Shown: positions 1-64,000 of the stretch, piece by piece | How the letters are laid out: each line of letters starts with the position of its first letter | Numbering within the stretch: position 1 is the stretch's first letter | Assembly: GCA_009781395.1 (NCBI GenBank) | Contig: WQYG01000001.1 | Span: 3,526-67,525, forward strand | Source: Candidatus Bathycorpusculum sp. | GTDB taxonomy: Archaea > Thermoproteota > Bathyarchaeia > Bathyarchaeales > Bathycorpusculaceae | Length of the DNA: 64,000 bases | Direction: 5' to 3' | Translations under genes and position numbers: made by a program | Notes under the pieces: model-generated | Databases searched by the model: none | What the model was told of the DNA's origin: nothing | What the model saw: only the letters and a program-made list of their open reading frames with translations

Positions 1-1530
1 CCAACTCATGAGGATGTAAATCGACTAAAAATAAAAGTAGCCGCCAAATACCACCTACCTAAAATGATTTCCAACGCCGACTTAATTGCCATATTAACCC
101 CCAAAGAAAATAGCCAATTATTACCCATACTACAACGCAAAACAACACGCACCATTAGCGGCGTAACAGTCATTGCAACAATGACTGAACCTTACCCTTG
201 CCCCCAACCTGAACCCTGTGCTTACTGCCCCGGCGGACCCACTCAAGGCTCCCCTCAAAGCTACACAGGACATGAACCCGCCGCCATGCGAGGCAGCCAA
301 AACAATTTCGACCCCTACCTACAAGTAAAAAGCCGCATCGAACAACTTACAGCCATCGGACATAAAGTAGACAAAATAGAACTCATCATTATGGGCGGAA
401 CCTTCCCAGCAACACCCCCTGAATACCAAACACACTTCATCCAACGCTGTCTTGACGCCATAACAGACAAAACATCTGCCAACTTGGAAGAAGCAAAAAC
501 TTTTGCTGAAACAAGCAAAATGCGCAATGTCGGCATAACAGTTGAAAGCCGCCCCGACTGGGCAAAACAACCCCACATTGACGACATGCTCAACATGGGC
601 GTAACACGCATTGAACTTGGCGTACAAAACCCCTGCGACGAAATCTATAAAATAGTTGGCCGAACACACACCGTTGCTGACGTAACCGAAGCAACCCAAA
701 TCGCAAAAGACGCCGGCCTAAAAATCGTCTACCACCTAATGCCCGGCATGCCAGGATCTAACCCTAAAAAAGACATCAACACTTTTAAAACAATCTTTTC
801 CGACCAACGATTTAAACCTGACATGATAAAAATCTACCCCTGCCTTGCAATCGACGGCACAAAAGCCTACCAATGGCTACAACAAGGCAAATACCAACCC
901 TACAACACCGAACAAGCCGCTGAAATAATCGCAGAAATTAAAAAATTCATACCCAACTGGGTCCGCATCATGCGAGTACAACGCGACATCCCCGCAAAAC
1001 TAATCCTAAATGGCGTAAAAAAAAGCAACCTACGCCAAATAGTCCACGAAAAACTAAAAACCCAAAACATAAAATGCCAATGCATCCGATGCCGCGAAGT
1101 AGGACACCGCATAGAAACCGACAACATAAAACCTAACCTCAAAAACATAGAAATCCTAACCCAACAATACACAGCATCAAACGGCACAGAATACTTCATC
1201 TCAGCCGAAGACCCCAAAAACAACATACTACTAGGATATCTACGCCTCCGCATACCCTCACCAAACGCCCACCGCCCAGAAATCACAAAAACCCCCACAG
1301 CCATCATCCGAGAACTACACATCTACGGCCCCCTAGTACCAGTTGGACACCACACAACAAACGCTTGGCAACACAAAGGCTACGGACAACAACTCTTACA
1401 AGAAGCAGAAAACATAACAAAAAAAGAAAACCTAAAAAAACTACTCATAATAAGCGCCTTAGGCACAAAACAATACTACATGCGAACAGGCTACCAACAC
1501 GACGGCCCCTACATGTCAAAACACCTATAA
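1..1530 (+). CDS. elp3: Elp3-family tRNA U34 acetyltransferase (radical SAM + GNAT), 5'-truncated by the window edge
   Basis: CPQPEPCAYCPGG radical-SAM-type Cys motif, KIELIIMGGTF, ESRPD, RELHIYG and WQHKGYG GNAT motif. The frame is open from base 1 (PTHEDVNRLKIKVAAKYHLPK), so the real start lies upstream of the window. Confidence 0.93.
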   Translation, partial: PTHEDVNRLKIKVAAKYHLPKMISNADLIAILTPKENSQLLPILQRKTTRTISGVTVIATMTEPYPCPQPEPCAYCPGGPTQGSPQSYTGHEPAAMRGSQNNFDPYLQVKSRIEQLTAIGHKVDKIELIIMGGTFPATPPEYQTHFIQRCLDAITDKTSANLEEAKTFAETSKMRNVGITVESRPDWAKQPHIDDMLNMGVTRIELGVQNPCDEIYKIVGRTHTVADVTEATQIAKDAGLKIVYHLMPGMPGSNPKKDINTFKTIFSDQRFKPDMIKIYPCLAIDGTKAYQWLQQGKYQPYNTEQAAEIIAEIKKFIPNWVRIMRVQRDIPAKLILNGVKKSNLRQIVHEKLKTQNIKCQCIRCREVGHRIETDNIKPNLKNIEILTQQYTASNGTEYFISAEDPKNNILLGYLRLRIPSPNAHRPEITKTPTAIIRELHIYGPLVPVGHHTTNAWQHKGYGQQLLQEAENITKKENLKKLLIISALGTKQYYMRTGYQHDGPYMSKHL

Positions 1531-1703
1531 CAAAACACACAAACCCAACCCACAACCTACAACCCCCCCGATACATCACCTACCTAACTACCTAACACAA
1601 CCCATCCACACTCCACACCCAACTAATAACAATAGTTTTCCAATGCTAAAAAAACATAGTTTATTAGGGAGTTCACAGATTGTTGCACTACAACTCACAC
1701 TAT

Positions 1704-1780
1704 GCGGGAATAGTACAGCTTGGTTAGTACATAGGCTTGCCAAGTCTAGGACTCGGGTTCAAATCCCGGTTCCCGCACCA
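1704..1780 (+). tRNA. tRNA-Gly(GCC), CCA encoded
   Basis: Cloverleaf: acceptor GCGGGAA/TTCCCGC, anticodon arm TAGGC-TTGCCAA-GTCTA, T loop TTCAAAT, ends ACCA. Confidence 0.95.
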
Positions 1781-1844
1781 GCTATCTGAGTATAAAGCCA
1801 TTCCTCCTTGTTCTGGTTTAAAAACTCTCAAAACCAAAAGCATC

Positions 1845-2334
1845 ATGAAACCCCTAACTCAAAATTTAGTTCTACCCCCAACGGTAATTGATGAGCCTGT
1901 GCATAATTATCAACAGCGACTTGACCGATCTCGCCACAACATAGCCTCACTGCCACACAGCGAAATAAGTCTCCAGTTTCTTGATCATCTAAGCGCGCTT
2001 GGTCTTTCTGTAGGTAGAGTATCAAAATACGCTTCACATTTACCCACTTTACTGCGCATAATAGGTGATGATGTTAAGGGAATGTCGAAAATTAAAGTGG
2101 ACAATGCACTCAGTGAAGGTATGTTGTTGCTCCATTAAGATTTCAAAAAAATGTCAAATTTATTTATCGACAATCCCTAAACTTAAAACTCTAACTAAAG
2201 CCGATGCAGAACGAATTGTTGCCGCTATAAATGCTAGACCAAATAAAGCCTCAACCAAATCTGATAACAAACTGCTTTTGCGTAAACTGGTGCAATATGC
2301 CAAAAAAGGTAGCTGCTCCAAACAAATCTCATAA
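1845..2334 (+). pseudogene. Remnant of a tyrosine integrase N-terminal (core-binding) region, interrupted by a 100-bp MITE and truncated before any catalytic domain
   Basis: Lies directly downstream of tRNA-Gly. FLDHLSALGLSVGRVSKYASHL...LTKADAERIVAAIN...STKSDNKLLLRKL resembles archaeal integrase N-termini. The two ORF halves join in frame when 2078-2180 is removed. Confidence 0.65.
2078..2177. mobile_element. 100-bp MITE with imperfect terminal inverted repeats and a TAA target duplication
   Basis: Starts GGGAATGTCGAAAA, ends TTTATCGACAATCCC; TAA at 2075-2077 and 2178-2180; excision restores the host ORF. Confidence 0.85.
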
Positions 2335-4843: not shown

Positions 4844-5242
4844 AATCCCTTATTTGCTTCAAATATTGTTCATGTTTGTGTTTTGACTTGAAGTTTCTTC
4901 GTTTTTAAATACTACTGTTAGGGCAAAAAATTTTTTAGGGGTTGTTTCTGCATCAAATAATTTTTGTTGTTTATTTGTGTGATGTATTTTCTGTGTACGC
5001 TTTCTTGTTGAATTATAGCAACATTAATTCATATTAACGCAAATAAATGTGCAGAAAAGTAGTTTTAGTCTGTGTCTGATGTCAAAGCATGGTGTACTCA
5101 ACGGTATTAAACTAGTTGGAATAGCAGATACGTGTCAATGTCATTTAATGTTGCTATACTATTCATGGAGGTTTTAACATGTTGTGTTGGTTTTAAAAAT
5201 GTTTGAGAATGGGGTTGATGATAAAAAGGGGTTGTTGGTAGT

Positions 5243-6058
5243 TTAGGTTGGTGTTGTGTTTGTTTGGGTGGTTTGGAGGGTGTGCTCGCATTGTTTGCAG
5301 TAATTGGTGTTGGTGTTGTTTTCGGTTCCGCATTGGCTGCAGTAGATTCTGTCAATGTTTGGGGGTGGGGTGGTTGTGTATGTTGGGGTGTTGTTGGTTG
5401 TTGTGGGGGTGGTGGGTTGTGGTTGGATTTGTTTGTAGCTTTTTGCGGCAAAGATCCATCCTATCCAGTTTATTAAGGGTATGATTGAGCCTATTAGGAA
5501 GAGTAGTCCTGTTGTTTTGAATGTTTCAATGTTTGTTTTTTCGCTGAGTTTGTTGAAGGCTTGCCAGTAAAGGATTCCGTTGATTATTCCAAAGATTACT
5601 AGTATGCCTATGATTGTTGCGTAAAGTGTTATGATTTGTGTGATTGTTGAGAAATTGTTTTCTATGGGGAGTTGCATTGTAGGGTTTGTTGTTGTAATAA
5701 GTGTGGTTGTTGTTATGATGGCAGATATTATGCTGGTTATTATGGCGCCGATGGTTGTGAGTAATAATCCGTATAGAATGTTTCTAAATATTGCCGGTTC
5801 TTTGTAATAGTTGGCTAGTTTGTGCATTGCTAAGAGAAATAGAATAAGTGCACTGATGCCTGCTGCGCCCATGATTATGCTGGTGCCTATAAGTGCGCCA
5901 CCTAAAAATGTAGAAAATAGATCGATGGTTGGGTTGACTAGTATTTGATGAAATAGGGCTGCAAATAAGCCTAAAGCCACTATAATTCCTATTACGGGCA
6001 ATATGATGTTTATCATACTTGCTGTGTACCCGTATTTTTTAGCTGATTCAAGAGACAT
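5243..6058 (-). CDS. DUF996-like membrane protein with C-terminal zinc ribbon
   Basis: Several TM helices, LLAMHKLANYYKEPAIF, FKTTGLLFLIG; C-terminal CSQCG...CKQC. Confidence 0.75.
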   Translation of the reverse strand: MSLESAKKYGYTASMINIILPVIGIIVALGLFAALFHQILVNPTIDLFSTFLGGALIGTSIIMGAAGISALILFLLAMHKLANYYKEPAIFRNILYGLLLTTIGAIITSIISAIITTTTLITTTNPTMQLPIENNFSTITQIITLYATIIGILVIFGIINGILYWQAFNKLSEKTNIETFKTTGLLFLIGSIIPLINWIGWIFAAKSYKQIQPQPTTPTTTNNTPTYTTTPPPNIDRIYCSQCGTENNTNTNYCKQCEHTLQTTQTNTTPT

Positions 6059-6293
6059 GTTTTAACCTCTAATAGTAATTATTATTATGTTTACTAAATA
6101 AATCTTTGTAGTGTAACAAATTTACAGTTGCGTTATAGTTATGATGCTAAGGCTGTTATTTTTATTGTTAGAGGTTATTTATGTATTTGAGGGTTCATCG
6201 CATAGCAAGAGTTTTGGGGTTTAATGATCATCTTAATCTTCATTTTTTCGCCCAAAATAAATTGCAAAAAGACGATTGTGCAAATTATACAAA

Positions 6294-7736: not shown

Positions 7737-7823
7737 GCGGGATTCCCCAAGCCTGGTATGGGGCAGGCCTGCTAAGTCTGTGGTCGAAAGGCCACGTGGG
7801 TTCAAATCCCACATCCCGCGCCA
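7737..7823 (+). tRNA. tRNA-Ser(GCT), long variable arm, CCA encoded
   Basis: Acceptor GCGGGAT/ATCCCGC, anticodon arm CAGGC-CTGCTAA-GTCTG, variable arm TGGTC-GAAA-GGCCA, G discriminator. Confidence 0.95.
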
Positions 7824-8063
7824 ATTTTCCTCTTAAACATTTTACCTATTACTTACCTTCAACTTTTCCGTGCCTCTTAAAATTTCAATTTGAGTTTGGA
7901 ACTGCGTGAAAATAATGAATTGATTTTTGCTGAAATGATGTGTTGGATAAGGTTGAGGCTTTAAGTGTTTATGCTGGTTTGTCTTCTCTTGTAGTGCTGC
8001 TACAAGGGAGACATTGTTAAAAGGAGGGAGAGTTTTTGAAAGTTACAAGAGAGGGTTTTGTTG

Positions 8064-8801
8064 TTAGGGGGTTTCTTTTGGGGTTGGGTTTTCTATTTGG
8101 AGGTTGTTGTTTAGGATTTGTAGTTTTTTTGTTGTTGTGGGTATTGTTGCGATTGTTATTTTTGTTATAGTTTGCGGTTGTTGTTGTTTTGTGTGTATTG
8201 CGTTTTTGAGGCATGTGATGGCTAATTCTATGGTTTGGTTAAGGGTCATGTTTTCTTTGTATTGTTCGGTTAGTTGGGTTTGCACGGTTTCTCTTCCTGT
8301 GCCTAATGCGATTGCTTTGTAGGCTTTGTAGGTGCCACTTTGATGTGTACAGAAAAGATGAGGTCCCGTTTTGTCAACGCCTCCTATGATTAAAACCGCT
8401 CCAAAAGGTCGTCCGCCTCCATGTTGAGTGAATACTTGTTGAGTGTTACTACATTTTTTAGTTATAGTTTCCACATCAACAGGTTCATCATACGTTAATT
8501 GGTTACTTTGAGCTTCATGTCGAGCATTTTGAATTAACACTCGCGCATCTGAACCTAAACCTACAATAGCTGCCCCAATATGCTCCTCTATTTGAAAAAT
8601 TTTTAATGAATGATCTGACTCTTCAAGAGGATCCGTGATTTCTTCTGAAGCTAACACTACCCCTTCAGGACATTTAATACCTAAAATAGTTGCCCCCCTA
8701 TTAACCAACTCCATAGTGTACTCAACTTGATATAACCGCCCATCAGGCGAAAACACTGTAGCGTTATAATCATACGTTCCCGGTTTTGCAAATGCCGACA
8801 T
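8064..8801 (-). CDS. psmA: Proteasome subunit alpha (divergent, possibly a second paralogue)
   Basis: YDYNATVFSPDGRLYQVEY alpha signature, GGGRPFG, ALG. Confidence 0.9.
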   Translation of the reverse strand: MSAFAKPGTYDYNATVFSPDGRLYQVEYTMELVNRGATILGIKCPEGVVLASEEITDPLEESDHSLKIFQIEEHIGAAIVGLGSDARVLIQNARHEAQSNQLTYDEPVDVETITKKCSNTQQVFTQHGGGRPFGAVLIIGGVDKTGPHLFCTHQSGTYKAYKAIALGTGRETVQTQLTEQYKENMTLNQTIELAITCLKNAIHTKQQQPQTITKITIATIPTTTKKLQILNNNLQIENPTPKETP

Positions 8802-9495: not shown

Positions 9496-12039
9496 TTGAA
9501 AATCTTTAAAAACAAATCTATACTTTCAACGATGGCAATACTGATGGTACTCTCTTTTGCAGTATCTATGCTGGCAATGCCAAATGCAAACGCACAAACA
9601 TACACGCCAACAAAGACTTATCCATTTGTTGACGCTGTTCCAATGATCGCTGGTGTCGGACAACCAGTTCTAATTAACTGGGGTTTACTAAACTTTATCG
9701 GCACAACTAACGATGGCTTTAACGCAACCGTAGTAATTACTCATCCTAACGGCAAAGTCGAAGAAATCACGGCAAAAACATGGTCTACTGGCTCAATCGG
9801 CAGAAAACTGTCCTTTTCAGAACCAGGAAACTATACATTACAATGTGTTTACAAAGAAGAAAATGCTACATTCCGTACATCAGCTACTGGAGCCTGGCAG
9901 TATCGACAATTTTTAGCAAGTGAAAGCGAAAACGTTACCTTACAAATAATTGAAGGCTATTGGAAGGCTGATTATCCAGGTCATTCACCCCCATCTGAGT
10001 ATTGGACTAGACCAGTTGATGCACAACTGCGTGAATGGTGGTCCATTATGGGCAGTTGGGTAGTTAAACCATTAAACTTGTATGCTCCTCATAATGCTGC
10101 ACCTGAAAGTGCACACGTTTTATGGAGTATGCCAATTGGCGATACAATGGGCGGTTTAGCTGGCGGAGACAACTGGGAGATACCTTTCCAAGGTGGAGAT
10201 GCTTATGAAGGTAAATTTGCAGACTCTGTCATCATTGCAGGTGTCTTATACTTTAACAGATATCCATCTACAATGTCTGGTGCTTCATACAAACAAACAG
10301 TTGTTGCAGTTGACTTACATACAGGCAAAGTGCTCTGGGAACAAGACTTTAACACAGGCCTTACTGGCACTTCTGTTACCAGTGGAAGAATTACACGCGG
10401 ACAAATACTTACATTCATCAACGAAAACAATCGTGGTGCATGGGCTTATCTTTGGTTTACTAACGGAACAACAATGCATGCAATTGATCCAATTACAGGT
10501 GTTCTCAGATACTCAATGACAGGCGTTCCAAGTGGGACTATCTACATTGGTCCAAGTGGTGAACTGCTAAAATACTCAGTTACTAACGTCGGAACAACGT
10601 CTGCTCCAAGTTATGTTGTGCGTCAATGGAACTCTACATACATTGTTATGCGTGGAGTAAACCTTGATGTCGGTGGTACAGGCGATGCTTGGGGTCCAAG
10701 AACTACTAACAGACAATCGTACAATGCAGCCTTTTACGATCAAGAAGTTGCAATACCTGGTATGACAATTGCGCCGGGAACATTAATTGCGGCATTTCCA
10801 GGCGACCGATTAGTCTATTCAACCACTGCTTCAGCAACCAATGGTATATTCCTTACAGGAATTAGCCTTGACCCAGAAAACTTTGGATTCATGCTCTTCA
10901 ATAGACGCGAGTTTAAAGCGCCTGACGAATGGGAAGGAATGACTCTAGGTGGTATTGGTCAAGCAGGTTGGGCAGCTGTTAGTCAAGAAGACTATAGAGC
11001 TGTTTTCTGGACAAAAGAAAACAGAGTAAACTATGTCTTTAACCTAGAAACAGGTAGACTTGCATGGCAATCAGAACCACAAATCTTTGCAGATGCATGG
11101 AGTGACACAGTTACCTCTTTCGGTCCAGAAAAAATCTTTGCATACGGTAAACTCTATGAAGCAAGCGTTGGCGGTATCGTATACTGTTATGATGCCAAAG
11201 ACGGTGAATTACTTTGGACATACGAAGCAACAGACAAATACAACGAATCCTACCACAGAGAAAATTGGTGGCTAGTTCCATTGTTCATCTCAGACGGCAA
11301 AATCTACCTTGGTCACATGGTACACTCACCACAAGTGCCCATTTCAAGAGGTGCACCGTTCCTTGCACTAGATGCAGAAACTGGTGAAATTGTTTGGGAG
11401 ATTAACGGAGCGTTCCGTCAGACTCGTTGGGGTGGACGCGCAATTATAGGCGATAGCATCATTGCAACATATGACTACTATGACCAGCAAATCTATGCAA
11501 TCGGCAAAGGTCCAAGCGAACTAACAGTTTCAGCACCTAATATTGCTGTTACAGCAGACACAACCGCTTTGATCACTGGAACAGTCATGGACGTTTCACC
11601 AGGTACACAAAGTGATAATCTACGACTCCGATTCCCTAATGGTGTTCCAGCAGTCGGCGATGAAAGCCAAAGCGAATGGATGCTCTACCTATACAAACAA
11701 TTCAGCGCACCAATGGACGTAACAGGCATTGAAATCACAGTGTACGCATATGACGGCGAGAACGTAATACCTATTGGCACAACAGAAAGTGATGCACGCG
11801 GTCAATACGCAATAACATGGAAACCAGACCGAGAAGGTACATATGAAATCTGGGCATACTTTGAAGGCACAGCATCATTCTACGGCAACGACGCAAAAAC
11901 CACAATGGCAGTATCAGCAGCACCAGAGGTAGTAGAACCAGAACCAACACCACCATACGAATGGTACATCGTTGGCATGGGCATTGCAATCATTGCAGTA
12001 GTCCTCATAATTGGTCTGTTGATTCTCAAAAAGAAATAA
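9496..12039 (+). CDS. Secreted, C-terminally anchored PQQ-like beta-propeller surface protein (paralogue 1)
   Basis: Signal peptide ending ANA-Q; repeats VAVDLHTGKVLW, YCYDAKDGELLW, ALDAETGEIVW; Pro-rich linker, TM helix, KKK tail. Confidence 0.85.
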   Translation: MKIFKNKSILSTMAILMVLSFAVSMLAMPNANAQTYTPTKTYPFVDAVPMIAGVGQPVLINWGLLNFIGTTNDGFNATVVITHPNGKVEEITAKTWSTGSIGRKLSFSEPGNYTLQCVYKEENATFRTSATGAWQYRQFLASESENVTLQIIEGYWKADYPGHSPPSEYWTRPVDAQLREWWSIMGSWVVKPLNLYAPHNAAPESAHVLWSMPIGDTMGGLAGGDNWEIPFQGGDAYEGKFADSVIIAGVLYFNRYPSTMSGASYKQTVVAVDLHTGKVLWEQDFNTGLTGTSVTSGRITRGQILTFINENNRGAWAYLWFTNGTTMHAIDPITGVLRYSMTGVPSGTIYIGPSGELLKYSVTNVGTTSAPSYVVRQWNSTYIVMRGVNLDVGGTGDAWGPRTTNRQSYNAAFYDQEVAIPGMTIAPGTLIAAFPGDRLVYSTTASATNGIFLTGISLDPENFGFMLFNRREFKAPDEWEGMTLGGIGQAGWAAVSQEDYRAVFWTKENRVNYVFNLETGRLAWQSEPQIFADAWSDTVTSFGPEKIFAYGKLYEASVGGIVYCYDAKDGELLWTYEATDKYNESYHRENWWLVPLFISDGKIYLGHMVHSPQVPISRGAPFLALDAETGEIVWEINGAFRQTRWGGRAIIGDSIIATYDYYDQQIYAIGKGPSELTVSAPNIAVTADTTALITGTVMDVSPGTQSDNLRLRFPNGVPAVGDESQSEWMLYLYKQFSAPMDVTGIEITVYAYDGENVIPIGTTESDARGQYAITWKPDREGTYEIWAYFEGTASFYGNDAKTTMAVSAAPEVVEPEPTPPYEWYIVGMGIAIIAVVLIIGLLILKKK

Positions 12040-12069
12040 ACAACCAACAACAAAACCAAAAACAAACCC

Positions 12070-12087
12070 TTTTTTCTTTTTTTGTTT
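12070..12087 (+). terminator. Oligo-T archaeal terminator
   Basis: TTTTTTCTTTTTTTGTTT 30 nt after the stop codon. Confidence 0.55.
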
Positions 12088-12309: not shown

Positions 12310-12387
12310 GGGCCGGTCGTCTAGCCTGGTTAGGACATCTGCTTGACGTGCAGAAGGTCGCCGGTCCGAATCCGGTTCGGCCCACCA
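12310..12387 (+). tRNA. tRNA-Val(GAC), CCA encoded, atypical T loop (TCCGAAT)
   Basis: Acceptor GGGCCGG/TCGGCCC, anticodon arm TCTGC-TTGACGT-GCAGA. Confidence 0.92.
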
Positions 12388-51599: not shown

Positions 51600-52967
51600 T
51601 TAGAGTCGTTTGATGTAGCGGTTTACTTCCCATTCGGTTACTTGTAGGCGGTAGGCGTCCCATTCGCGGCGTTTTTCTTTTAAAAAGTTTTCAAAGGCTG
51701 TTTCGCCTAGGGTTTCTTTCATAAGCTCGCTTGTTGCAAGTTCGTCTAGGGCTTCTTTTAGGGATTCTGGCAGGGAGACTATGCCGCGTTCTTTGCGTTC
51801 TTCATAGCTCATGTGGTAAACGTTTAGTTCCACGGGTTCTCCTGGGTCGGTTTTGTTTTTAATACCGTCAAGACCTGTGGCTAGTAGTACTGCAAATTGT
51901 AAGTATGGGTTGCCTGCGCCGTCTGGACAGCGGATTTCACATCTTGCAGCGCTTTTTCTGCCGCCAAAGTTTGGTACACGGATAAGTGGGCTGCGGTTTT
52001 TGTGTGCCCATGCAATATAGACAGGGGCTTCATATCCGGGAACTAGGCGTTTGAAGCTATTTGGCCAACTGTTAAGTATGGCACACATTTTGCGTCCGTG
52101 TGCGAGCTGTCCGCCGATAAAGTTGCGTGCAATCTCTGAGAGGTAGCCTTGTTTTTCGTCTTTTTCGGAGAAGAACATGTTTATTGTGCCATCGAGGTTC
52201 CATAGGCTTTGGTGGATGTGCATGCCACTGCCGTTTATGCCTTGGAAGGGTTTTGGCATGTATGTTGTTAGGTATCCGGCTCTTGCGGCGACGACTTTTC
52301 CACACATTTTTAGGGTGATAGCTCGGTCGGCTGTTTCTAGGGCTTCGCCGTATTTGAAGTCAATTTCGTTTTGACCTAGGGCGCTTTCGTGGTGGCTGAT
52401 TTCGATGTCTATACCAAAGGCTTCGGCGGTGTCGGCTATTTCACGTCTTAAATCATCAGTTAAGTCGCCTGGATGGAAATCAAAGTACCCCGATAAGTCT
52501 ATGGGAGTGGGTAAACCGCCGTTTTCAGATTCTTTTACTATAAAAAATTCAAGCTCAGGTGCACACATGAATTTATAACCCCCTTGACAGGCTTTTTCGA
52601 TTGTTTTTTCAAGGATGTAGCGGGGGTCAGCATCGTAGCGTTTGTTTTGTGGAGTATAGATGTCGCAGAGAAGTCTACAAGAAGATTTTTCTTTGGGCCT
52701 CCAAGGCAAGATTGCAAAAGTTGTTGGATCAGGATATAAAACCATATCAGATTCTTCAACAGGTCCATAGCCTGTAATTGAAGAACCATCAAATGACTGC
52801 CCATTCTCAAAAATACTTTCAATATTTTTTGAACTCACCGCAAGATTCTTTAACATACCATTAATGTCAGTAAACTGCAACCTAACAAATTTTATGTCAT
52901 TTTCACGGATAGTTTTTACAACATTAGTTACATTTTCTTTCCAAACAACATCATTGAAATTTTTCAT
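51600..52967 (-). CDS. glnA: Glutamine synthetase type I
   Basis: FDGSS, HHE, PKPFQGINGSGMHIHQS, RLVPGYEAP, NRSPLIR, NPYL. Confidence 0.95.
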   Translation of the reverse strand: MKNFNDVVWKENVTNVVKTIRENDIKFVRLQFTDINGMLKNLAVSSKNIESIFENGQSFDGSSITGYGPVEESDMVLYPDPTTFAILPWRPKEKSSCRLLCDIYTPQNKRYDADPRYILEKTIEKACQGGYKFMCAPELEFFIVKESENGGLPTPIDLSGYFDFHPGDLTDDLRREIADTAEAFGIDIEISHHESALGQNEIDFKYGEALETADRAITLKMCGKVVAARAGYLTTYMPKPFQGINGSGMHIHQSLWNLDGTINMFFSEKDEKQGYLSEIARNFIGGQLAHGRKMCAILNSWPNSFKRLVPGYEAPVYIAWAHKNRSPLIRVPNFGGRKSAARCEIRCPDGAGNPYLQFAVLLATGLDGIKNKTDPGEPVELNVYHMSYEERKERGIVSLPESLKEALDELATSELMKETLGETAFENFLKEKRREWDAYRLQVTEWEVNRYIKRL

Positions 52968-55033: not shown

Positions 55034-55157
55034 AAACAAAAAATATTTATAAAAAAATAAAAAGCTAGACTATGCAAAAACGAGTTTTAAAGTACATTAA
55101 CACATAAAAATTCAACAAACAACAACTATAAATACAACATAAAGCAAACAATCATTA

Positions 55158-55610
55158 TTGATGTTGAATATTATGCGTTACAAAGAAGGATTTAACAAAT
55201 TTTTGTTTTGTTTGGTGTTGTTATTATGTTTAGTGATGTTTATGGGTTGTTTTGTTGGTTTAGTAAATGCTCAGACATTTGGTTCAACTATTACTATTAT
55301 GCCGGATGGTAGTGTTGGGCGAACTGATCTGATTCAGCGGAACGGAGATGTTTATACTTTAAAAGGAGATATTTTTGGCACAATATCGGTTAAAAAAGAT
55401 GGCATTACAATTGATGGTGCCGGATATGCAATTAAAGGAACGGGAAACGGAATAGATTTACGAAAGAATTCTATGGCCATTCCGCCTGCGCATAGTAATG
55501 TTGTGGTGAAGAATGTTCGTTTTTGTGATAATAGTCTCATTTTTACTTCTGCGTGTAGTAACAGTTTCATCAACTACACGTCGATTGAATCGGTATTACT
55601 GAAGAATTAA
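55158..55610 (+). pseudogene. Truncated secreted beta-helix (NosD-like) protein
   Basis: Signal peptide; ITIMPDGSV...GDVYTL...ITIDGAGY; ends after about 150 aa with no TM anchor, just before a repeated hairpin. Confidence 0.6.
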
Positions 55611-55615
55611 ACACT

Positions 55616-55720
55616 AATTTTGTGGGTTTTTGGTGTGGTGTGTCCTTTTGTGGGGACAAAGACCACGCCAGCTTTGGTTATTTTTAGTTGGACGTGTTTG
55701 TTTGTGGGGTGCGGGTGTGA
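55616..55720 (+). repeat. About 105-bp repeat copy A containing a conserved hairpin
   Basis: Shares TTTTGGTGTGGTGTGTC, CAAAGACCACG and TTATTTTTAGTTG with 58895-59000. Confidence 0.75.
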
Positions 55721-55941
55721 TGTCAAGATTATTTACTCAATGATGACATCCATGGTGGCATGATGTGGTCATGTCACGGCATTAATCGGGTTGAAAGAGT
55801 TTTTATTTGTTTTCTTTGTTAGATGGGTTGTTGTGGGTGGGATTTGAATTGTTTGGTAAAGCTGTTTAAGTTGTCTTGTAGTAACAATGGGTGTGCTCCA
55901 AAAATAGGAGAGGTTGGTTTCTGAGAAATCAACAAACCCAT

Positions 55942-56868
55942 TTAAACTATGGCAGAATTAACTATTTTTGTTGTAGACTGTTTTTGTTTTTGCTTTTTTA
56001 AACGATAAAAAAACAAACCAACAACAACAGCAATAGCAACCGCTCCTGCGATAGGTAAAAGATAAGACTGCTCACCACCAGTCATAGGTTCGACAAACAC
56101 GTCTTCTTCCTCGACAAATACGTCATGACCTTCACCACTTAACGCTGTATTCAAAGAAAACTCTACAGATTTACCCATTTCAAAAGCAACCGTACTATAC
56201 ACACCCCCACCCTTATTAACAGCAGTATTATCCAAAATACGACTACCCCCGGAATTCACGGATAAGTCACCCTTATTGTAAACTCCACCCCCATTCTCCA
56301 TAGCAGCATTATTGGAAATTATTCCATCCCAGCCACCAACACCTCCATACATATAGAAAATGCCCTCATTGTACACTCCACCACCATAATCAGCAGCATT
56401 ACCAGAAATCACTCCTCCATAAAAGTCAAATTCGCCACCACGCTCAACATACACCCCACGACCAGTAGCACCCTTTGCATGTGTCACAACAATACCTCCA
56501 TAAAGCTTCAAATACCCACCCGACCTTACAATAATAGTGTCCATACCATCAGCTCCAACCAGAGAAACACCACCATCCTCATACGATACCAAGACAATTC
56601 CTTTGCCATCAGAGATTTCAAGAGGATTTTTCAAAAAAATGCTCTCCATAACATAAATTATGCACCCATCACTACCTGAAGTGTCAATAGCCTTTCTAAG
56701 GGCTGTCTCAGTTTTAACCTGAACATCTACATCCAACCATACACCACTAACTTCGGAAGTAAAAGGTGAAGAAAATAATGTTATTATGAAGAGTAAAGAA
56801 ATGAAGGTTAAAGTTTTTTTACTGAGAAATTGCTGCTGATTAAATTTAGGTTTAACAAACACGGCCAT
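55942..56868 (-). CDS. Secreted beta-helix adhesin-like protein with GGGVYN repeats and a TM anchor
   Basis: GGGVYN twice, GGGVYS; C-terminal TM helix plus RLKKQKQK; paralogue of 28992-30281. Confidence 0.78.
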   Translation of the reverse strand: MAVFVKPKFNQQQFLSKKTLTFISLLFIITLFSSPFTSEVSGVWLDVDVQVKTETALRKAIDTSGSDGCIIYVMESIFLKNPLEISDGKGIVLVSYEDGGVSLVGADGMDTIIVRSGGYLKLYGGIVVTHAKGATGRGVYVERGGEFDFYGGVISGNAADYGGGVYNEGIFYMYGGVGGWDGIISNNAAMENGGGVYNKGDLSVNSGGSRILDNTAVNKGGGVYSTVAFEMGKSVEFSLNTALSGEGHDVFVEEEDVFVEPMTGGEQSYLLPIAGAVAIAVVVGLFFYRLKKQKQKQSTTKIVNSAIV

Positions 56869-57173
56869 ACAAATACGTCCTCTTTAATTTGATAAATGTA
56901 TTATTGTTGTTATTATTTTTTTTGCCATATTTCTCATGAAAACATTTTTTATTTTCGTGGTTCTTCCAGCATCGGCGCAGCCGATGGTGTGGTCTTCCAT
57001 GAAAACATTTGTTGGGTTTCATAGTTTGTCTATCATCGGCTCGCCGATGGCGTATTTTTCTATGTTTACTAATTTTTGGTTGATAAAGAAAAAGAGGGTT
57101 GTGTTGTGTAGTATTGCTGTGTTCTATTTGAAGATCATTTGTCATTATTGTTGCTGCGGGTTGTTTTTCAGTG

Positions 57174-58894: not shown

Positions 58895-59000
58895 AAATTT
58901 GGAGGTTTTGGTGTGGTGTGTCAGCTTTTTTGGGCTGGCAAAGACCACGTTAACTCACAGATTATTTTTAGTTGAATGTGCTGGTGGGGGTGTGGGTGTG
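58895..59000 (+). repeat. About 105-bp repeat copy B containing a conserved hairpin
   Basis: See copy A; inner stem differs with pairing retained. Confidence 0.75.
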
Positions 59001-59003
59001 TTT

Positions 59004-59315
59004 TTATTTTCGTGTGGGTGGGTTTTCTTTGTAGTATGCGCCTGCTAGAAATATTAGGGTTAGGATGTAGGGTTCTAGGTGGTTGATTGTGTGTTTTGCT
59101 TGTTTGATGTTTTTTGTTACGTTTTTTAGTATGTCTGTGTTGGTTTCGTGGTCGTAAAAGTCTTTTTCTATGTTGTTTAGGTGTTCGAGGATTAGGTTTT
59201 TTATTTTTTCGTCGCTGTCGGCTAGTTCGTTTATGCCTTCGCTTATTTGTAGGGCTTCTACTGTTGGGTTGTAGACGGTTGTTGCTTGGGTGTTTTCGGG
59301 TTTGAGTTTGAACAT
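59004..59315 (-). CDS. Hypothetical helical protein (probably proviral)
   Basis: 103-aa ORF, divergent from the packaging operon. Confidence 0.5.
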   Translation of the reverse strand: MFKLKPENTQATTVYNPTVEALQISEGINELADSDEKIKNLILEHLNNIEKDFYDHETNTDILKNVTKNIKQAKHTINHLEPYILTLIFLAGAYYKENPPTRK

Positions 59316-59540
59316 TTGGTTTATCCCTTGTAATGTTGTTTGTGGTTGAGGTATTTTTGTGTTTGTTTGTTGTTATTGCAAGTTTTTCAGGGGAAGTTGT
59401 GGTGTTTCTTGTGGAAAACTTTTAAATACCCCTGGCGCCCTCAACTATTTTGTAATATTATTACGTTTCAGGTTTCCTCATTCCGCGCCTAAACCTATGG
59501 TTTATCCCCTGCGGGGGACGTATGGAGTGTCATACTATTT

Positions 59541-59915
59541 ATGCCCCACCACCATTCTTTAAAACAATACACCCTATATCTACAACGTAGAGAGTCTGCA
59601 AAAAAATATGCACTATCCCTACTTAGTGATCTTGCACTATATGATTTAGAAGAACACGAACAAATAAACACCCTGCTGCAACCAACTGATTTCTCCAACG
59701 CCTTAACAAATCAGTACCCAAACGTAGACGCAGACACAATACTACCCGAGTTGCCCCCTGATTCTTTAGAAAAAGGCTTAGTCTTAAAAGACCGCTACGG
59801 CAGAGGCGCCCTGCAGCAAGACGACAAACCCAACAAAACCTTAACCGTAGATCAATGGCGCGAACAATTTCGCCTACAACTCTATCAAACCACTAAACGA
59901 GGGGTAACCATGTGA
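59541..59915 (+). CDS. Hypothetical proviral protein
   Basis: 124-aa ORF with ATGTGA overlap with the next gene. Confidence 0.6.
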   Translation: MPHHHSLKQYTLYLQRRESAKKYALSLLSDLALYDLEEHEQINTLLQPTDFSNALTNQYPNVDADTILPELPPDSLEKGLVLKDRYGRGALQQDDKPNKTLTVDQWREQFRLQLYQTTKRGVTM

Positions 59916-60211
59916 CAGAAAAAGCCGCCGTCATGAGTCAAGACGACTCTTTACTCTCACGCATAAACGCCATAGAAATCGCTCAACTTTTAACCTACAA
60001 AGAACACATCCAAACAAACTTACTAGACCGCATTGACAAAATCGAAAAAACCCAAACAACCCAAACCACGCAACTTGAAGAAATAAACCTGCAATTAACC
60101 AAACACATATCCGTCCAAGAATCTTTGACAAACCATTACAAGGCACTCTTAACAGGCGTCTTTGGCGTCATAGGCGGCGCAATCATCACCTACCTCCTCC
60201 AAACACTCTAG
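59912..60211 (+). CDS. Coiled-coil protein with a C-terminal TM helix (XhlA/holin-like)
   Basis: Heptad region LLDRIDKIEK followed by ALLTGVFGVIGGAIITYLL. Confidence 0.55.
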   Translation: MTEKAAVMSQDDSLLSRINAIEIAQLLTYKEHIQTNLLDRIDKIEKTQTTQTTQLEEINLQLTKHISVQESLTNHYKALLTGVFGVIGGAIITYLLQTL

Positions 60212-62127: not shown

Positions 62128-62157
62128 CAACAAAAACAATAAAAATTAAAAGTTTGG

Positions 62158-63714
62158 TTGAGGAAAAAAAGTTTGTCTGTGACTCGGTTTGGTGCAAAAG
62201 TTACTAAGGATGGGGGGTTAATTCTGCATCCTTCCTTAGCGGTAGTAGGGGATATGGGTGATGTGCGGGGTCAGGATGTTTCAGCTGACACGGATGCGGG
62301 GTTTGGGCAGCCCATATCGGATAGTGAACTCTCGTTTGCTGCTTGCCGTGAACCCGTTGCTCATTTTTTGACTTATGGGGTAGCAGCTGATGTGACTGAT
62401 AAATGGTTCTACGTTGATGACTTAGACACCAAAAACCCCGATGTCGAATTAGATAATAATGTGCAGATGGCTTTAGATGAGATAGATTTTCGCGAAGTGT
62501 TAACCGAAGCCTTAATCCAAGCTCGCATTTACCGCAAAAGCCTAATTGTCTGCGCCTTTGATGATGCCAAAGACGTTTCCGAACTAAAGCAGCCAAGAAA
62601 GGAAGGCGCCAAGCTTTTACAGTTTGAAACCTACCCTAAAACTGAGAATAGCCAAAAACTCTTTCCTTACTCTGTGGACAAAAAAGATGACGACGTCAAA
62701 AGCTTACGGTATGGTAAACCTGTACTTTACCGTATAGACCGAGGTGGGGGGAACGTGCTTTTAGTGCATTTTTCACGTTGCATTGAGGTGGATAACAAGT
62801 TTTCTGTTTTAGCGCCCATCTTTGATGATTTAGTCTGTGGACGCAATATACGTTGGGGAGCTGCTCAGTGGCTCTACCGCACAGGTGGTGGTTTTCCTGT
62901 TTTGGGTTTTCCACGGGGGACTCCCTTGGAAGATTTGGAAAAGTATTGTGCCTCAGGGGCTTTTAACGATTTGATGAATCGTAGTTACATTACTTTAGCG
63001 CAGAACAGTAAAGACGAAAACGACGGCATGACCATAGATTTTAAAGGCGCCGCCAACACCACCCTAAACCCTGTCCCCTTCCTAAAAAGTAACATTGAAC
63101 AAATCAGCATCGCAACCGGTATCCCTCAAGCAAAACTTGTAGGTGCCCAAGCAGGCGCCCTAACAGGCAGCAACGTAAACATGCAAGACTACTTTAAAGT
63201 CATAAGCCGCATACAAAACGGTCTGCCCACAAAAATTGCTAAACAAGTAATCCTCTGGCTAGCTGAGAGCGGCCAAATCACCCGCCTAAAAACCATAGCT
63301 CAAACAGATAGTTTAACCAGGCAGTTTATTAAAAAATTCCACAGAGGCGACTATCGTAAAAAAATTGTGCAACACTTTGCCATAGTTTGGAACAGTGCTT
63401 TTGAGCATTCAGAAATAGATAAAGCAAAAATTGAACTCGACAACGTCCGCAGCAACCAAGGAAAACTAGACTATATGACTATAGACGAAGTTCGAGCAAG
63501 CGAAGACCTAGACCCCTTGCCAAATAAAGAAGGCGAAAAACTAAAACGTTCAAGTTTAAACGAACTCTTCACTACCCCACCTTCTTCCTCAAACACCAAA
63601 GAAAACAGTAGTACACCTGAGCAGCAGTTGCAACAAGCCGACAAATTCCTACTAGTCGACTTAACCCCCAAACCCCCTCAACCACCAGCTTTTCACTCCG
63701 ACGATGCAACTTAG
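62158..63714 (+). CDS. Phage portal protein (DUF1073/HI1409-like)
   Basis: Follows terminase; RYGKPVLYRI, ISIATGIPQAKLVGAQAGALTGS, DYMTIDEVR. Confidence 0.85.
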   Translation: MRKKSLSVTRFGAKVTKDGGLILHPSLAVVGDMGDVRGQDVSADTDAGFGQPISDSELSFAACREPVAHFLTYGVAADVTDKWFYVDDLDTKNPDVELDNNVQMALDEIDFREVLTEALIQARIYRKSLIVCAFDDAKDVSELKQPRKEGAKLLQFETYPKTENSQKLFPYSVDKKDDDVKSLRYGKPVLYRIDRGGGNVLLVHFSRCIEVDNKFSVLAPIFDDLVCGRNIRWGAAQWLYRTGGGFPVLGFPRGTPLEDLEKYCASGAFNDLMNRSYITLAQNSKDENDGMTIDFKGAANTTLNPVPFLKSNIEQISIATGIPQAKLVGAQAGALTGSNVNMQDYFKVISRIQNGLPTKIAKQVILWLAESGQITRLKTIAQTDSLTRQFIKKFHRGDYRKKIVQHFAIVWNSAFEHSEIDKAKIELDNVRSNQGKLDYMTIDEVRASEDLDPLPNKEGEKLKRSSLNELFTTPPSSSNTKENSSTPEQQLQQADKFLLVDLTPKPPQPPAFHSDDAT

Positions 63715-63991
63715 CAGCCTAATTGGCGCCATACGCTTAATCCAAATGGGGGATAAGCGTTGGATTCCACAGCAGTTGCGCGGGTATAGTTTTTTTAGTA
63801 AACTTGATGAGTGGGGTTTTCAGTCAAGTGAACACCAAAACATGTGCATTACATGTGAGGACTTTAATGGCCAAGTTTTTGCAGGCGATGAACTACGCCG
63901 CACTTTTCCCTATTTAACTGTGGAATCTAAAAACACAATTTCCCCCAATGTGCATCCCAACTGCAAATGCACCCTACAAAGAGAAAATTAA
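63704..63991 (+). CDS. Short head-morphogenesis (Mu gpF/SPP1 gp7-like) motif protein
   Basis: CITC...NGQVF...VHPNCKC (HxNCRC-type motif), overlapping the portal stop. Confidence 0.7.
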   Translation: MQLSSLIGAIRLIQMGDKRWIPQQLRGYSFFSKLDEWGFQSSEHQNMCITCEDFNGQVFAGDELRRTFPYLTVESKNTISPNVHPNCKCTLQREN

Positions 63992-64000
63992 ATGTACGTA

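What the first reader, a model, noticed from the sequence alone, without database searches (positions are those of the whole stretch)
1..64000. Sawtooth G+T / A+C strand skew that resets every few kb, independent of gene orientation
Seen: the + strand repeatedly drifts from G+T-rich to A+C-rich and then jumps back to G+T-rich. Examples: AC 11700-12070 then GT 12200-12790; AC 13200-15950 then GT 16000-17150; AC 22400-24290 then GT from about 24650; AC 28650-30380 then GT 31620-33000; AC 36450-36920 then GT 37900-39400; AC 58670-58850 then GT 58900-59400. Jumps occur at convergent (about 12100), divergent (about 24400) and co-directional junctions, so coding-strand bias does not explain them. 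Genes on either strand tend to be G/T-rich near one end and A/C-rich near the other, and this reaches the proteins: V/G/F-rich Nnr N-terminus versus T/N/Q/K/P-rich stretches in the DUF996 protein and Elp3. Established: C>T and A>G deamination of exposed single strands gives keto skew, and an abrupt AC-to-GT jump is the replication-origin signature. Inference: a dense set of bidirectional initiation points (many origins or recombination-dependent replication), pervasive divergent transcription from intergenic DNA, or a strand-specific mutator is shaping this genome at kb scale.
Basis: partly seen in the sequence, partly recalled or inferred. Interest (0 to 1): 0.75.

Follow-up and report, generated by a model that had tools for sequence, protein, structure and literature searches.

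The report
Kilobase patchwork of one-strand mutation bias
In this uncultured archaeon the DNA is divided into gene-sized blocks in which one strand has lost most of its C and A at every freely changeable position, a footprint far stronger and finer than known replication or transcription skews, which has also reshaped the proteins.

Summary
The skew is real. It sits mainly at third codon positions. Gene-level coding-strand G+T minus A+C there (k3) runs from -0.98 to +0.89 genome-wide (SD 0.36; sampling 0.06; E. coli sample 0.07). It extends about 100 nt into flanking non-coding DNA and shifts amino-acid composition.

It is not one skew per gene orientation, and not a replication signature. Persistence is about 1 kb. 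Of the sharpest upward jumps, 75% lie at gene ends (chance 29%), and junctions inside operons show none. Abrupt downward flips are nearly as common.

Polarised substitutions on this lineage show one process, C>T plus A>G. It acts on the coding strand in G/T-type genes and on the template strand in A/C-type genes.

The skew is lineage-specific: SD 0.36 here, 0.28 in the sister species, 0.20-0.22 in other congeners.

tRNA genes anchor it. The strand running away from a tRNA gene is G+T-rich on both sides, whatever the neighbour's orientation.

Best reading: single-strand deamination tied to local transcription polarity, including divergent and read-through transcripts. Which strand is exposed, and a replication-like alternative, remain open. 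No RNA or read data could be reached.

The parts
1..1600 (+). A+C block over the Elp3 gene (+ strand gene, A/C-type, k3 -0.70). It strengthens towards tRNA-Gly, with neutral-site skew going from -0.5 to -0.94.
1704..1780 (+). tRNA-Gly(GCC). The block upstream of it is A+C-rich on the tRNA-sense strand.
5200..6060 (-). G+T block on the + strand over the DUF996 gene (- strand gene, A/C-type, k3 -0.65).
7737..8450 (+). tRNA-Ser(GCT) followed by a G+T block (+0.5 to +0.6) that covers the 3' part of gene 8064-8801(-). The block ends with a flip inside that gene at about 8451 (D -0.86).
11000..12075 (+). A+C ramp at the 3' end of the 847-aa gene 9496-12039(+), ending in an upward jump at about 12076 (D +0.89).
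12165..12850 (+). G+T block containing tRNA-Val(GAC) 12310-12387 and, antisense to it, the NikR gene 12397-12792(-). NikR has k3 -0.98: 130 of 132 called codons (stop included) end in A or C. NikR's stop lies 9 nt from the tRNA 3' end.
12826..15950 (+). Downward flip at the divergent junction (D -0.95). An A+C ramp then runs from -0.1 to -0.9 across the co-directional genes 12916-15752(+).
16000..18400 (+). Upward jump at about 16000, then a G+T block over a RhuM fragment and a kelch gene (+ strand genes, G/T-type).
20600..24350 (-). A+C block on the + strand, growing to -0.85, over the macro-domain, Tsr3-like and Nnr genes (- strand genes, G/T-type; Nnr k3 +0.70) and about 500 nt of non-coding DNA. 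It ends abruptly near 24400.
26150..27232 (-). G+T block on the + strand over a 361-aa gene (A/C-type, k3 -0.54).
28600..30380 (-). A+C block on the + strand over a PMP-repeat surface-protein gene (G/T-type, k3 +0.47).
31626..33000 (-). Upward jump (D +0.93), then a G+T block over the NERD gene 31644-32351(-) (k3 -0.89) and about 650 nt of non-coding DNA carrying copies of the repeated motif.
37600..40500 (-). G+T block on the + strand over the hybrid-cluster protein and ferredoxin genes (A/C-type, k3 -0.64 and -0.67). It is strongest at the 3' end.
40551..42700 (+). The sharpest flip in the window (D -1.33), at a divergent promoter region. An A+C block follows over the Crp-family gene 40594-41259(+) (k3 -0.88) and decays over the next 1.5 kb.
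47701..48600 (-). Upward jump (D +0.99), then a G+T block confined to the 3' third of the 746-aa gene 47715-49952(-).
51600..52400 (-). G+T block confined to the 3' part of gene 51600-52967(-), at a convergent junction.
55151..56870 (.). Upward jump at 55151 and downward flip at 56001. An A+C block covers the adhesin-like gene 55942-56868(-) (G/T-type).
58976..60211 (.). Upward jump (D +1.01), a G+T block over gene 59004-59315(-) (k3 -0.94), a flip, then an A+C block over genes 59541-60211(+).

Best explanation
The window, and the whole genome, is a patchwork of blocks about 1 kb long. In each block one DNA strand has been driven towards G+T by an excess of C>T and A>G changes. This is the classical footprint of deamination of DNA that is left single-stranded. 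Shown here: the blocks are bounded by transcription-unit edges. They spill about 100 nt into flanking non-coding DNA. The same two transitions act on the coding strand in some genes and on the template strand in others. The pressure has altered amino-acid composition. It has been amplified in this species, less so in its sister, and barely in other members of the genus. Also shown: tRNA genes, which are strong, untranslated and of known direction, are flanked on both sides by DNA whose strand running 5'->3' away from the tRNA gene is G+T-rich, whatever the orientation of the neighbouring gene. Inferred: the exposed strand is the non-template strand of local transcription. The sign of each block would then record the net transcription polarity: sense minus antisense, including divergent transcripts from symmetrical promoters and read-through past gene ends. 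The average 5' G+T to 3' A+C gradient of genes would come from sense transcription fading along the gene while antisense or read-through transcription enters from the 3' side. A baseline preference for C- and A-ending codons would oppose the G+T drift in expressed genes. Some change in this lineage, in repair, R-loop handling, temperature or a deaminase, has raised the single-strand-specific rate well above the symmetric background.
For: The skew is at the DNA level, not the codon level. Third-position k3 has SD 0.356, against 0.06 from sampling. GC skew and TA skew at third positions co-vary (r 0.83). Intergenic DNA of 60-400 nt has skew SD 0.24, against 0.08 expected, and correlates at r 0.5-0.6 with flanking third positions. 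The skew decays within 100-150 nt after stop codons. Amino-acid drift relative to orthologues tracks k3 (r 0.72), while ancestral protein composition does not predict k3 (partial r 0.00). Polarised 4-fold spectrum on the G000 branch: G/T-type genes show C>T 0.62 and A>G 0.22; A/C-type genes show G>A 0.49 and T>C 0.32; neutral genes show C>T 0.37, G>A 0.21, T>C 0.11 and A>G 0.08. Links to transcription units: co-directional neighbours with a gap <30 nt correlate at r 0.53, those with a gap >150 nt at r -0.04. Operon-internal jumps average +0.04, against +0.26 to +0.39 at junctions that contain a gene 3' end. Of extreme upward jumps, 75% lie at gene ends, against 29% by chance. tRNA anchoring: on the tRNA-sense strand, skew is -0.33 at -500..-100, decays to 0 by -1.5 to -2 kb, and is +0.14 over the 1 kb downstream; the control at protein-gene starts is -0.02/+0.05. 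Co-directional upstream genes have k3 -0.49+-0.10 (n 15) and divergent upstream genes +0.30+-0.085 (n 13). Lineage-specificity: k3 SD is 0.356 (G000), 0.28 (G006), 0.22 (G017) and 0.20 (G003). The tRNA effect is -0.29, -0.18, -0.01 and +0.03 in the same order, and the gene gradient scales the same way. Divergent transcription from near-symmetrical promoters is reported across the domains of life (PMC10268837, which cites Warman et al. 2021 for bacterial and archaeal promoters).
Against: If the non-template strand is the exposed one, about half of all genes must see more antisense than sense exposure. These include likely well-expressed genes that are A/C-type: thermosomes -0.4, RNA polymerase A' -0.35, TFB -0.82. 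Divergent promoters do not on average show the expected upward jump (-0.04 to -0.15), and several show sharp opposite flips (40551, 12826). A/C-type genes slightly more often have a TATA-like box upstream (54% against 40%). The downstream tRNA effect is only about 3 standard errors. Neighbour orientation class explains almost none of gene-level k3. The ribosomal-protein operon is neutral. No repair gene loss specific to the skewed genomes was found: UDG, RNase HII and NucS are present, and EndoV is absent but is also absent from the weakly skewed G017.
Confidence: 0.45

Rival explanations
1. Transcription is the cause, but the strand that gains G+T is the template strand. Sense transcription makes the coding strand A+C-rich, increasingly along the unit, for example through repeated transcription-coupled excision and error-prone resynthesis of the template strand. 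G/T-type genes would then be those dominated by antisense transcription.
For: The average gene runs from about +0.08 at the 5' end to -0.20 at the 3' end and resets just after the stop. Convergent junctions jump up, divergent junctions slightly down. Likely well-expressed genes are A/C-type. TATA-like boxes are somewhat commoner before A/C-type genes.
Against: Around tRNA genes this model needs transcription converging on the tRNA from both sides, including antisense through divergent neighbours. It gives no reason why that transcription would be stronger there than elsewhere. The region -100..0 before tRNAs is neutral. C>T plus A>G is the established signature of the exposed non-template strand, not of the hybrid-protected template strand. 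The ribosomal-protein operon is neutral.
Confidence: 0.17
2. Many local starts of DNA synthesis, either R-loop-primed or recombination-dependent replication or long repair synthesis, occur at tRNA genes and gene 3' ends. Each A+C-to-G+T jump would be a small origin-like site and the skew would map fork or synthesis polarity.
For: The geometry at tRNA genes and at junctions holding a 3' end is the origin signature, with the strand leaving the site G+T-rich on both sides. The spectrum equals that of leading-strand skew. The sign is independent of the neighbour's orientation at tRNAs. There is a weak excess of + strand autocovariance at about 5.5 and 11 kb.
Against: It needs on the order of a thousand or more initiation sites in 2.1 Mb. 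Abrupt G+T-to-A+C flips (86 against 103 upward) would need fixed termination points. Co-directional genes separated by >150 nt are uncorrelated while operon partners correlate at 0.53. The skew stops about 100 nt beyond stop codons and starts at gene starts, that is, at transcript borders. No large-scale skew is seen in 400 kb of a closed congener.
Confidence: 0.12
3. Strand-polar biased repair or gene conversion. Mismatch processing that sees only some mismatches (archaeal EndoMS/NucS acts on G/T-type mispairs) during recombination or patch repair would write kilobase tracts enriched in one base class on one strand.
For: The persistence length of about 1 kb is similar to conversion-tract lengths. 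NucS is present. Skew travels with genes rather than with synteny.
Against: NucS is present in all 17 of 18 congeners that gave a hit, including weakly skewed ones. Nothing explains why tracts would end at transcript borders or be oriented on tRNA genes. No recombination signal was tested.
Confidence: 0.08
4. Selection on codons or mRNA composition: two translation regimes (NNC/NNA genes against NNU/NNG genes) or selection on mRNA structure.
For: The skew is strongest at third positions and largely confined to gene bodies. Congeners show a mild general preference for A/C-ending codons, with mean k3 about -0.1. Thermosome and RNA polymerase genes are A/C-type.
Against: The skew extends into intergenic DNA. 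It changes amino acids in step with third positions. Ribosomal-protein genes are neutral. The tRNA set is the ordinary GNN/UNN/CNN set. Genes beside tRNAs take the sign set by the tRNA's orientation, not by their own. Orthologue k3 correlation decays quickly: 0.66, then 0.45, then 0.31.
Confidence: 0.04
5. Artefact of assembly, polishing or binning.
For: The genome is a 163-contig metagenome-assembled genome, and raw reads could not be inspected.
Against: Open reading frames are intact with strong Pfam matches in both classes. The pattern respects codon positions. An independently assembled sister species shares it gene by gene (r 0.60-0.66). Blocks alternate within single contigs.
Confidence: 0.01

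Closest known systems
Transcription-associated mutational strand asymmetry (coding-strand C>T in enterobacteria; A>G/T>C and C>T/G>A asymmetries in vertebrate genes: PMC2927911; reviews PMC10030826, PMC2031905)
   Same: It is confined to transcribed DNA. It has the same two transitions. It is visible at silent and non-coding transcribed sites. In both cases it is explained by exposure of one strand.
   Different: Known cases have one polarity relative to the coding strand and small amplitude. Here both polarities occur in about equal numbers. Third positions reach 90-99% of one base class. Polarity can change inside long genes. Proteins are visibly remodelled.
Replication-associated skew, and codon usage split by leading/lagging strand (Borrelia-type; e.g. 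Lawsonia, PMC2671203; review PMC3269012)
   Same: One strand is G+T-rich through C>T and A>G change. Codon and amino-acid usage fall into two complementary classes.
   Different: Those domains are replichore-sized with one switch at the origin and one at the terminus. Here the sign changes every 1-3 kb, follows transcript borders and is anchored at tRNA genes. No large-scale skew is seen.
Human skew N-domains and bidirectional asymmetries starting at CpG islands (PMC2817419)
   Same: There are upward jumps at fixed sites with decline between them. The polarity is bidirectional around promoter-bearing sites. The same ambiguity between transcription and replication exists.
   Different: The scale there is up to 1 Mb (PMC2817419); here it is 1-5 kb. 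The amplitude here appears far larger (my knowledge, not measured here), and abrupt downward flips are common.
[quoted passage not shown]
   Same: There is a gradient along genes. It affects 4-fold sites and amino acids and extends into promoters and 3' UTRs. It is attributed to phases of transcription.
   Different: The polarity is opposite: fungi are C-biased at 5' and G-biased at 3', whereas here genes are G/T-rich at 5' and A/C-rich at 3'. In fungi it is a uniform pattern. Here the gradient is a minor part of a much larger gene-to-gene variance of either sign.
Strand asymmetry of animal mitochondrial DNA; strand-coordinated deaminase mutation clusters (my own knowledge, not tested here)
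   Same: One strand is nearly depleted of C and A by single-strand deamination. The tracts are of kilobase length.
   Different: Mitochondrial skew has a single polarity tied to the replication mode. Mutation clusters are somatic events, not an equilibrium state of a whole genome.

Membership tests
Replication-associated strand asymmetry | Polarity switches only at origins and termini; domains of replichore size | tested here: not met
   The + strand neutral-site autocovariance falls to zero by about 1.9 kb. There are 189 extreme switches genome-wide. 20-kb means in a closed congener are about 0.
Replication-associated strand asymmetry | G+T-rich strand produced by excess C>T and A>G | tested here: met
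   Polarised 4-fold spectrum on the G000 branch
Replication-associated strand asymmetry | Jumps coincide with origin elements (ORB boxes, cdc6/orc1) | not tested
   No origin model was searched. The jumps lie at tRNA genes and gene 3' ends.
Transcription-associated mutational asymmetry | Confined to transcription units, with borders at promoters and terminators | tested here: met
   Start and stop meta-profiles. Operon partners correlate at r 0.53, against -0.04 across gaps. Junction classes. Enrichment of change points at gene ends.
Transcription-associated mutational asymmetry | One fixed polarity relative to the coding strand | tested here: not met
   k3 is symmetric around -0.03, from -0.98 to +0.89. 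The E. coli sample is +0.13 with SD 0.07.
Transcription-associated mutational asymmetry | Amplitude scales with transcription level | tested here: inconclusive
   Flanks of tRNA genes are strongly affected, but the ribosomal-protein operon is neutral and there are no RNA data.
Translational codon selection | Restricted to codons; strongest in ribosomal-protein and other highly expressed genes | tested here: not met
   Intergenic extension. The L3-L4-L23-L2-S19 genes have k3 about 0. Amino-acid drift tracks k3.
N-domain type sawtooth (fork-polarity gradient) | Abrupt upward jumps only, with linear decline between them | tested here: not met
   86 abrupt downward against 103 upward extrema. There are plateaus with sharp flips, e.g. 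38200-40500 then 40551.
Fungal 5'/3' gene skew | Coding strand C-biased at the 5' end and G-biased at the 3' end | tested here: not met
   Here genes are G/T-rich at the 5' end and A/C-rich at the 3' end (deciles +0.08 to -0.20).

The most novel reading that the evidence does not exclude
In this Bathyarchaeia-like lineage, tRNA genes and gene 3' ends are preferred start sites of an origin-independent DNA synthesis, primed by R-loops or dependent on recombination. The kilobase skew would then be a map of where and in which direction the chromosome is copied or re-copied. It would be a genome-wide evolutionary record of a replication mode so far known only from mutants and a few origin-less archaea.
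Probability: 0.1. Interest if true: 0.9.

Novelty: new variant of a known kind. Interest (0 to 1): 0.72.

Why it matters
If the blocks record net transcription polarity, DNA composition alone would give a time-averaged map of sense, antisense, divergent and read-through transcription in an organism that cannot be grown. That map would extend to other uncultured lineages where unchecked notes of this scan report similar patterns.

The finding also shows that a strand-specific mutation pressure can override codon preference and reshape a proteome gene by gene: V/G/F-rich against T/N/Q/K/P-rich versions of ordinary enzymes. This matters for phylogenetics (compositional attraction), for codon-based expression and gene-transfer predictors, and for gene calling.

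The difference between this species, its sister and other congeners offers a natural comparison for finding the responsible repair, R-loop or deaminase function.

Tried and rejected
1. Wrong-strand gene calls as the source of G/T-type genes: rejected. Both classes have strong Pfam matches.

2. Expression-linked codon selection: rejected. Ribosomal-protein genes are neutral and function lists of both extremes are ordinary housekeeping genes.

3. An unusual tRNA repertoire: rejected. The set is the ordinary one.

4. Neighbour orientation class, gene length, flanking gap sizes or operon position as predictors of gene-level sign: negligible effects.

5. Nearest-neighbour (Ising-like) coupling: rejected. 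Third-position autocorrelation is flat from 1 to 40 codons.

6. Seeding by protein composition, or a runaway from pre-existing skew: rejected. Partial r is 0.00, and the regression slope of G000 k3 on G017 orthologue k3 is 0.77, below the 1 expected for amplification of pre-existing skew.

7. Loss of synteny as the driver: rejected. Orthologue correlation is about 0.6 whatever the neighbour conservation.

8. Promoter, Shine-Dalgarno or terminator motif differences between classes: small and confounded by the skew itself.

9. Loss of UDG, RNase HII or NucS: rejected, all are present. EndoV is absent but is also absent from the weakly skewed G017.

10. No GGCC lies within 200 nt of the upward jumps.

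11. rRNA operons as a second natural experiment: not possible, since there are no rRNA genes in this assembly.

12. Periodicity: only a weak 3-sigma excess at about 5.5 and 11 kb. The spectral peak is broad and partly a detrending effect.

13. Literature searches for a described prokaryotic precedent found none in the held library.

Full report
**Material and method**

The window is C1:3526-67525 of a 2.13-Mb, 163-contig genome assembled from a metagenome (a MAG; 39.6% G+C; 94.7% complete). Elp3, DUF996, NikR and an archaeal tRNA set mark it as an archaeon, and another note of this scan calls it Bathyarchaeia-like.

No gene caller was on hand, so I wrote a hexamer-score caller. It finds 1,887 genes covering 81.5% of the genome. 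I measured keto skew, (G+T-A-C)/N, by codon position in the coding frame (k1, k2, k3). On the + strand I measured it at 'neutral' sites, meaning third positions plus intergenic DNA.

Only 'GT from about 24650' is flat.
- The 500-nt windows span -0.51 to +0.53.
- The root-mean-square (rms) skew in 300-nt windows is 0.21 genome-wide. It is 0.058 for random sequence, 0.12 in a closed genome of the same genus (G003) and 0.075 in 50 kb of E. coli.

**Where the skew sits**

It is strongest at third codon positions. In the window, k3 runs from -0.98 (NikR, 12397-12792, - strand) to +0.70 (Nnr, 22309-23853, - strand). Genome-wide, 1,656 genes of at least 100 aa have mean k3 -0.03, SD 0.356 and range -0.98 to +0.89. 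Sampling alone would give SD 0.06, and 43 E. coli genes give 0.07.

Both extremes are real genes with strong Pfam matches:
- A/C-type: Elp3, DUF996, NikR, NERD, hybrid-cluster protein, ferredoxin, Crp.
- G/T-type: Nnr, kelch, RhuM, macro domain, glyoxalase, Tsr3.

GC skew and TA skew at third positions move together (r 0.83). In the A/C decile, 80-87% of two-fold NNY codons end in C (Phe only 51%), and 95-97% of NNR codons end in A. In the G/T decile, 79-93% of NNY codons end in T and 48-65% of NNR codons end in G.

**It is a DNA-level pressure, not codon choice**

- k1 and k2 follow k3 (r 0.76 and 0.49). V, G and F rise in G/T-type genes; T, Q, I, P, K, N and H rise in A/C-type genes.
- The change of k1 relative to G003 orthologues tracks k3 (r 0.72). 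Protein-level composition (k1 and k2) of the G017 orthologue, used as a proxy for the ancestral state, does not predict k3 (partial r 0.00).
- Intergenic stretches of 60-400 nt have skew SD 0.24, against 0.08 expected. They correlate at r 0.5-0.6 with the third positions of the adjoining gene ends.
- After stop codons the skew of A/C-type genes falls from -0.67 through -0.30 and -0.18 to about 0 within 150-200 nt.
- The ribosomal-protein genes L3-L4-L23-L2-S19 are neutral. Other genes taken as likely well expressed do not share one sign: thermosome (-0.4) and RNA polymerase A' (-0.35) genes are A/C-type, while aIF5B is +0.42. The tRNA set is the usual GNN/UNN/CNN set.

**Shape**

In every quintile of genes, coding-frame k3 is lower in the last tenth of the gene than in the first. 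The all-gene deciles run from +0.08 to -0.20.

Mean + strand jumps at junctions are:
- +0.39 at convergent junctions
- +0.26 at co-directional junctions with a gap of at least 100 nt
- +0.04 inside operons
- -0.04 at divergent junctions

This average is a small part of the variance, with junction SDs around 0.5. Third-position autocorrelation inside genes falls from 0.18 to 0.055 at 300 codons and to 0 at 600. The field therefore persists for about 1 kb, and long genes can differ between their two ends.

Among the sharpest changes (|D|>=0.8 over 400 nt each side) there are 103 upward and 86 downward. Of these, 75% and 47% lie at gene ends or intergenic DNA, against 29% by chance. So the pattern is a patchwork with a sawtooth tendency.

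**Transcription units matter**

- Co-directional neighbours with a gap under 30 nt share their skew (r 0.53). Those more than 150 nt apart do not (r -0.04).
- Across convergent junctions the + strand skew is positively correlated (r 0.25 gene-wide, 0.41 for the last 300 nt). Across divergent junctions it is not.
- The orientation class of the neighbours explains almost nothing of a gene's own sign.

**Comparison with relatives**

k3 SD is 0.356 here, 0.28 in the sister species G006, 0.22 in G017 and 0.20 in G003. G006 and G017 are about 85% and 83% identical in protein to G000. Their tree is ((G000,G006),G017).

- Orthologue k3 correlates at r 0.66, 0.45 and 0.31 respectively, regardless of conserved synteny.
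- Elp3 has k3 -0.70 here, -0.48 in G006 and about -0.15 elsewhere.
- 4-fold sites are 58-60% identical between G000 and G006, so they are not fully saturated.

Parsimony on 24,113 shared 4-fold sites of 238 gene triplets gives the G000-branch spectrum in the coding frame:
- G/T-type genes: C>T 0.62, A>G 0.22, G>A 0.15, T>C 0.04.
- A/C-type genes: G>A 0.49, T>C 0.32, C>T 0.15, A>G 0.03.
- Neutral genes: C>T 0.37, G>A 0.21, T>C 0.11, A>G 0.08.

So the same pair of transitions acts on opposite strands in the two classes. The G006 branch is near baseline for the same genes. Multiple hits make these numbers qualitative.

**tRNA genes as a natural experiment**

The 38 tRNA genes are strongly transcribed, untranslated and of known direction.

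- On the tRNA-sense strand, neutral-site skew is -0.33+-0.05 at -500..-100, -0.26 at -1000..-500, -0.16 at -1500..-1000 and about 0 beyond (+0.03 at -2000..-1500, rising to about +0.1 further upstream).
- It is -0.07 in the last 100 nt before the tRNA.
- It is +0.11 to +0.13 for 1 kb downstream.
- The same profile around 837 protein-gene starts is -0.02/+0.05.
- Genes just upstream take the sign set by the tRNA, not by their own strand. Co-directional ones have k3 -0.49+-0.10 (n 15, p 1e-4) and divergent ones +0.30+-0.085 (n 13, p 0.004).
- The upstream effect is -0.29 in G000, -0.18 in G006, -0.01 in G017 and +0.03 in G003. It therefore scales with each genome's overall skew.

In the window:
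- tRNA-Val (12310-12387) sits in a G+T block that covers the whole antisense NikR gene.
- tRNA-Ser (7737-7823) is followed by a G+T block reaching into gene 8064-8801.
- The A+C skew of Elp3 rises towards tRNA-Gly.

**Interpretation**

What is shown is a strand-asymmetric transition pressure that is local, bounded by transcripts and amplified in this lineage. What is inferred is that the exposed strand is the non-template strand of whatever transcription crosses a site. Block sign would then reflect net polarity, including divergent transcripts from symmetrical promoters and read-through past gene ends. Promoter bidirectionality is described across the domains of life (PMC10268837, citing Warman et al. 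2021).

This reading fits:
- the tRNA data, where tRNA genes act as sources in both directions;
- the sharp onset near intergenic sites and the slow decay;
- the positive + strand correlation across convergent junctions;
- the established chemistry.

It fits less well:
- the missing upward jump at divergent promoters;
- the sharp opposite flips (40551, 12826);
- the A/C type of probably well-expressed genes.

A baseline preference for A/C-ending codons (mean k3 about -0.1 in congeners) may mask sense-strand G+T drift, but that is conjecture. The mirror model, in which the template strand gains G+T, explains the average gene profile more simply but not the tRNA data. A replication-like model with local starts at tRNA genes and 3' ends has the right geometry. 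However, it needs a very large number of start and stop sites that coincide with transcript borders.

I found no gene loss that tracks the trait. UDG, RNase HII and NucS are present. EndoV is missing from G000, G006 and G017 alike.

**Known parallels and novelty**

The known parallels are transcription-associated asymmetry, replication skew with two codon classes, human N-domains and CpG-island asymmetries (PMC2817419), and the fungal 5'/3' gene skew (PMC3315797). Each shares features with this case. None has both polarities at kilobase scale with third positions near saturation.

Searches of the held literature found no prokaryotic precedent. Earlier unchecked notes of this scan report similar patchworks in other uncultured archaea and bacteria. 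That suggests a recurrent phenomenon. I used those notes only as leads.

**Limits**

- The gene calls are home-made, and starts are taken as the longest open frame.
- Parsimony was applied to partly saturated sites.
- The samples of relatives are partial (0.4-0.8 Mb each).
- No RNA or read data were available.
- The caps on genome letters and on scripts were reached.

Noticed in passing
window 1-64000: GGCC is about two-fold under-represented: 73 sites against 148+-13 in dinucleotide-preserving shuffles. This may reflect restriction avoidance. No GGCC lies at the upward skew jumps.
   Followed up: partly
window 15534-15562, 23915-23941, 27506-27534, 28489-28515, 32388-32414, 32965-32993; also 24114-24146 / 32886-32918: Copies of a GTATACAAAAGCATC-type motif occur in both orientations at the ends of strongly skewed non-coding arms. 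There is also a 33-nt inverted repeat (94%) with a TATA-like box (CTTATATAATC). The non-coding arms 23900-24400 and 32400-33000 look like inverted copies of one element and carry opposite skew on the + strand.
   Followed up: partly
window 16765-16838 and 31567-31640: A 74-nt inverted repeat (86%) lies just upstream of two kelch paralogues (16847-18166 + and 30387-31553 -). It is probably a shared promoter or leader. One paralogue is G/T-type (k3 +0.33) and the other neutral (+0.11).
   Followed up: no
whole genome and 17 congeners: Endonuclease V (PF04493), which repairs deaminated adenine, is absent from G000 and its nearest relatives (G006, G017, G052, G018, G062). It is present in nine other species of the genus, one copy carrying a stop. 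Its absence does not track skew strength.
   Followed up: partly
whole genome, contigs of at least 15 kb: The + strand neutral-site autocovariance shows weak bumps at about 4.5-6.5 kb and 10.5-11.5 kb (about 3 standard errors). This hints at a preferred block spacing near 5.5 kb.
   Followed up: partly
window 38132-39742 (-): The hybrid-cluster protein is only about 50% identical to those of species of the same genus, while Elp3 is 73-84% identical. It may be a divergent paralogue or a transferred copy.
   Followed up: no
G000 contigs C25:3247-4026, C40:14117-15154 and others: A/C-type genes carry low-complexity T/N/Q/K/P/H runs inside otherwise conserved enzymes (e.g. TTTTNHNNNEN in an ABC ATPase, HHLLLLQHNNNNNSD). 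G/T-type genes carry V/G/F runs (e.g. VVVFEVVVLRVV). These look like by-products of the mutation pressure.
   Followed up: no
whole genome: No 16S or 23S rRNA gene is present in the assembly, as is common for metagenome-assembled genomes.
   Followed up: yes
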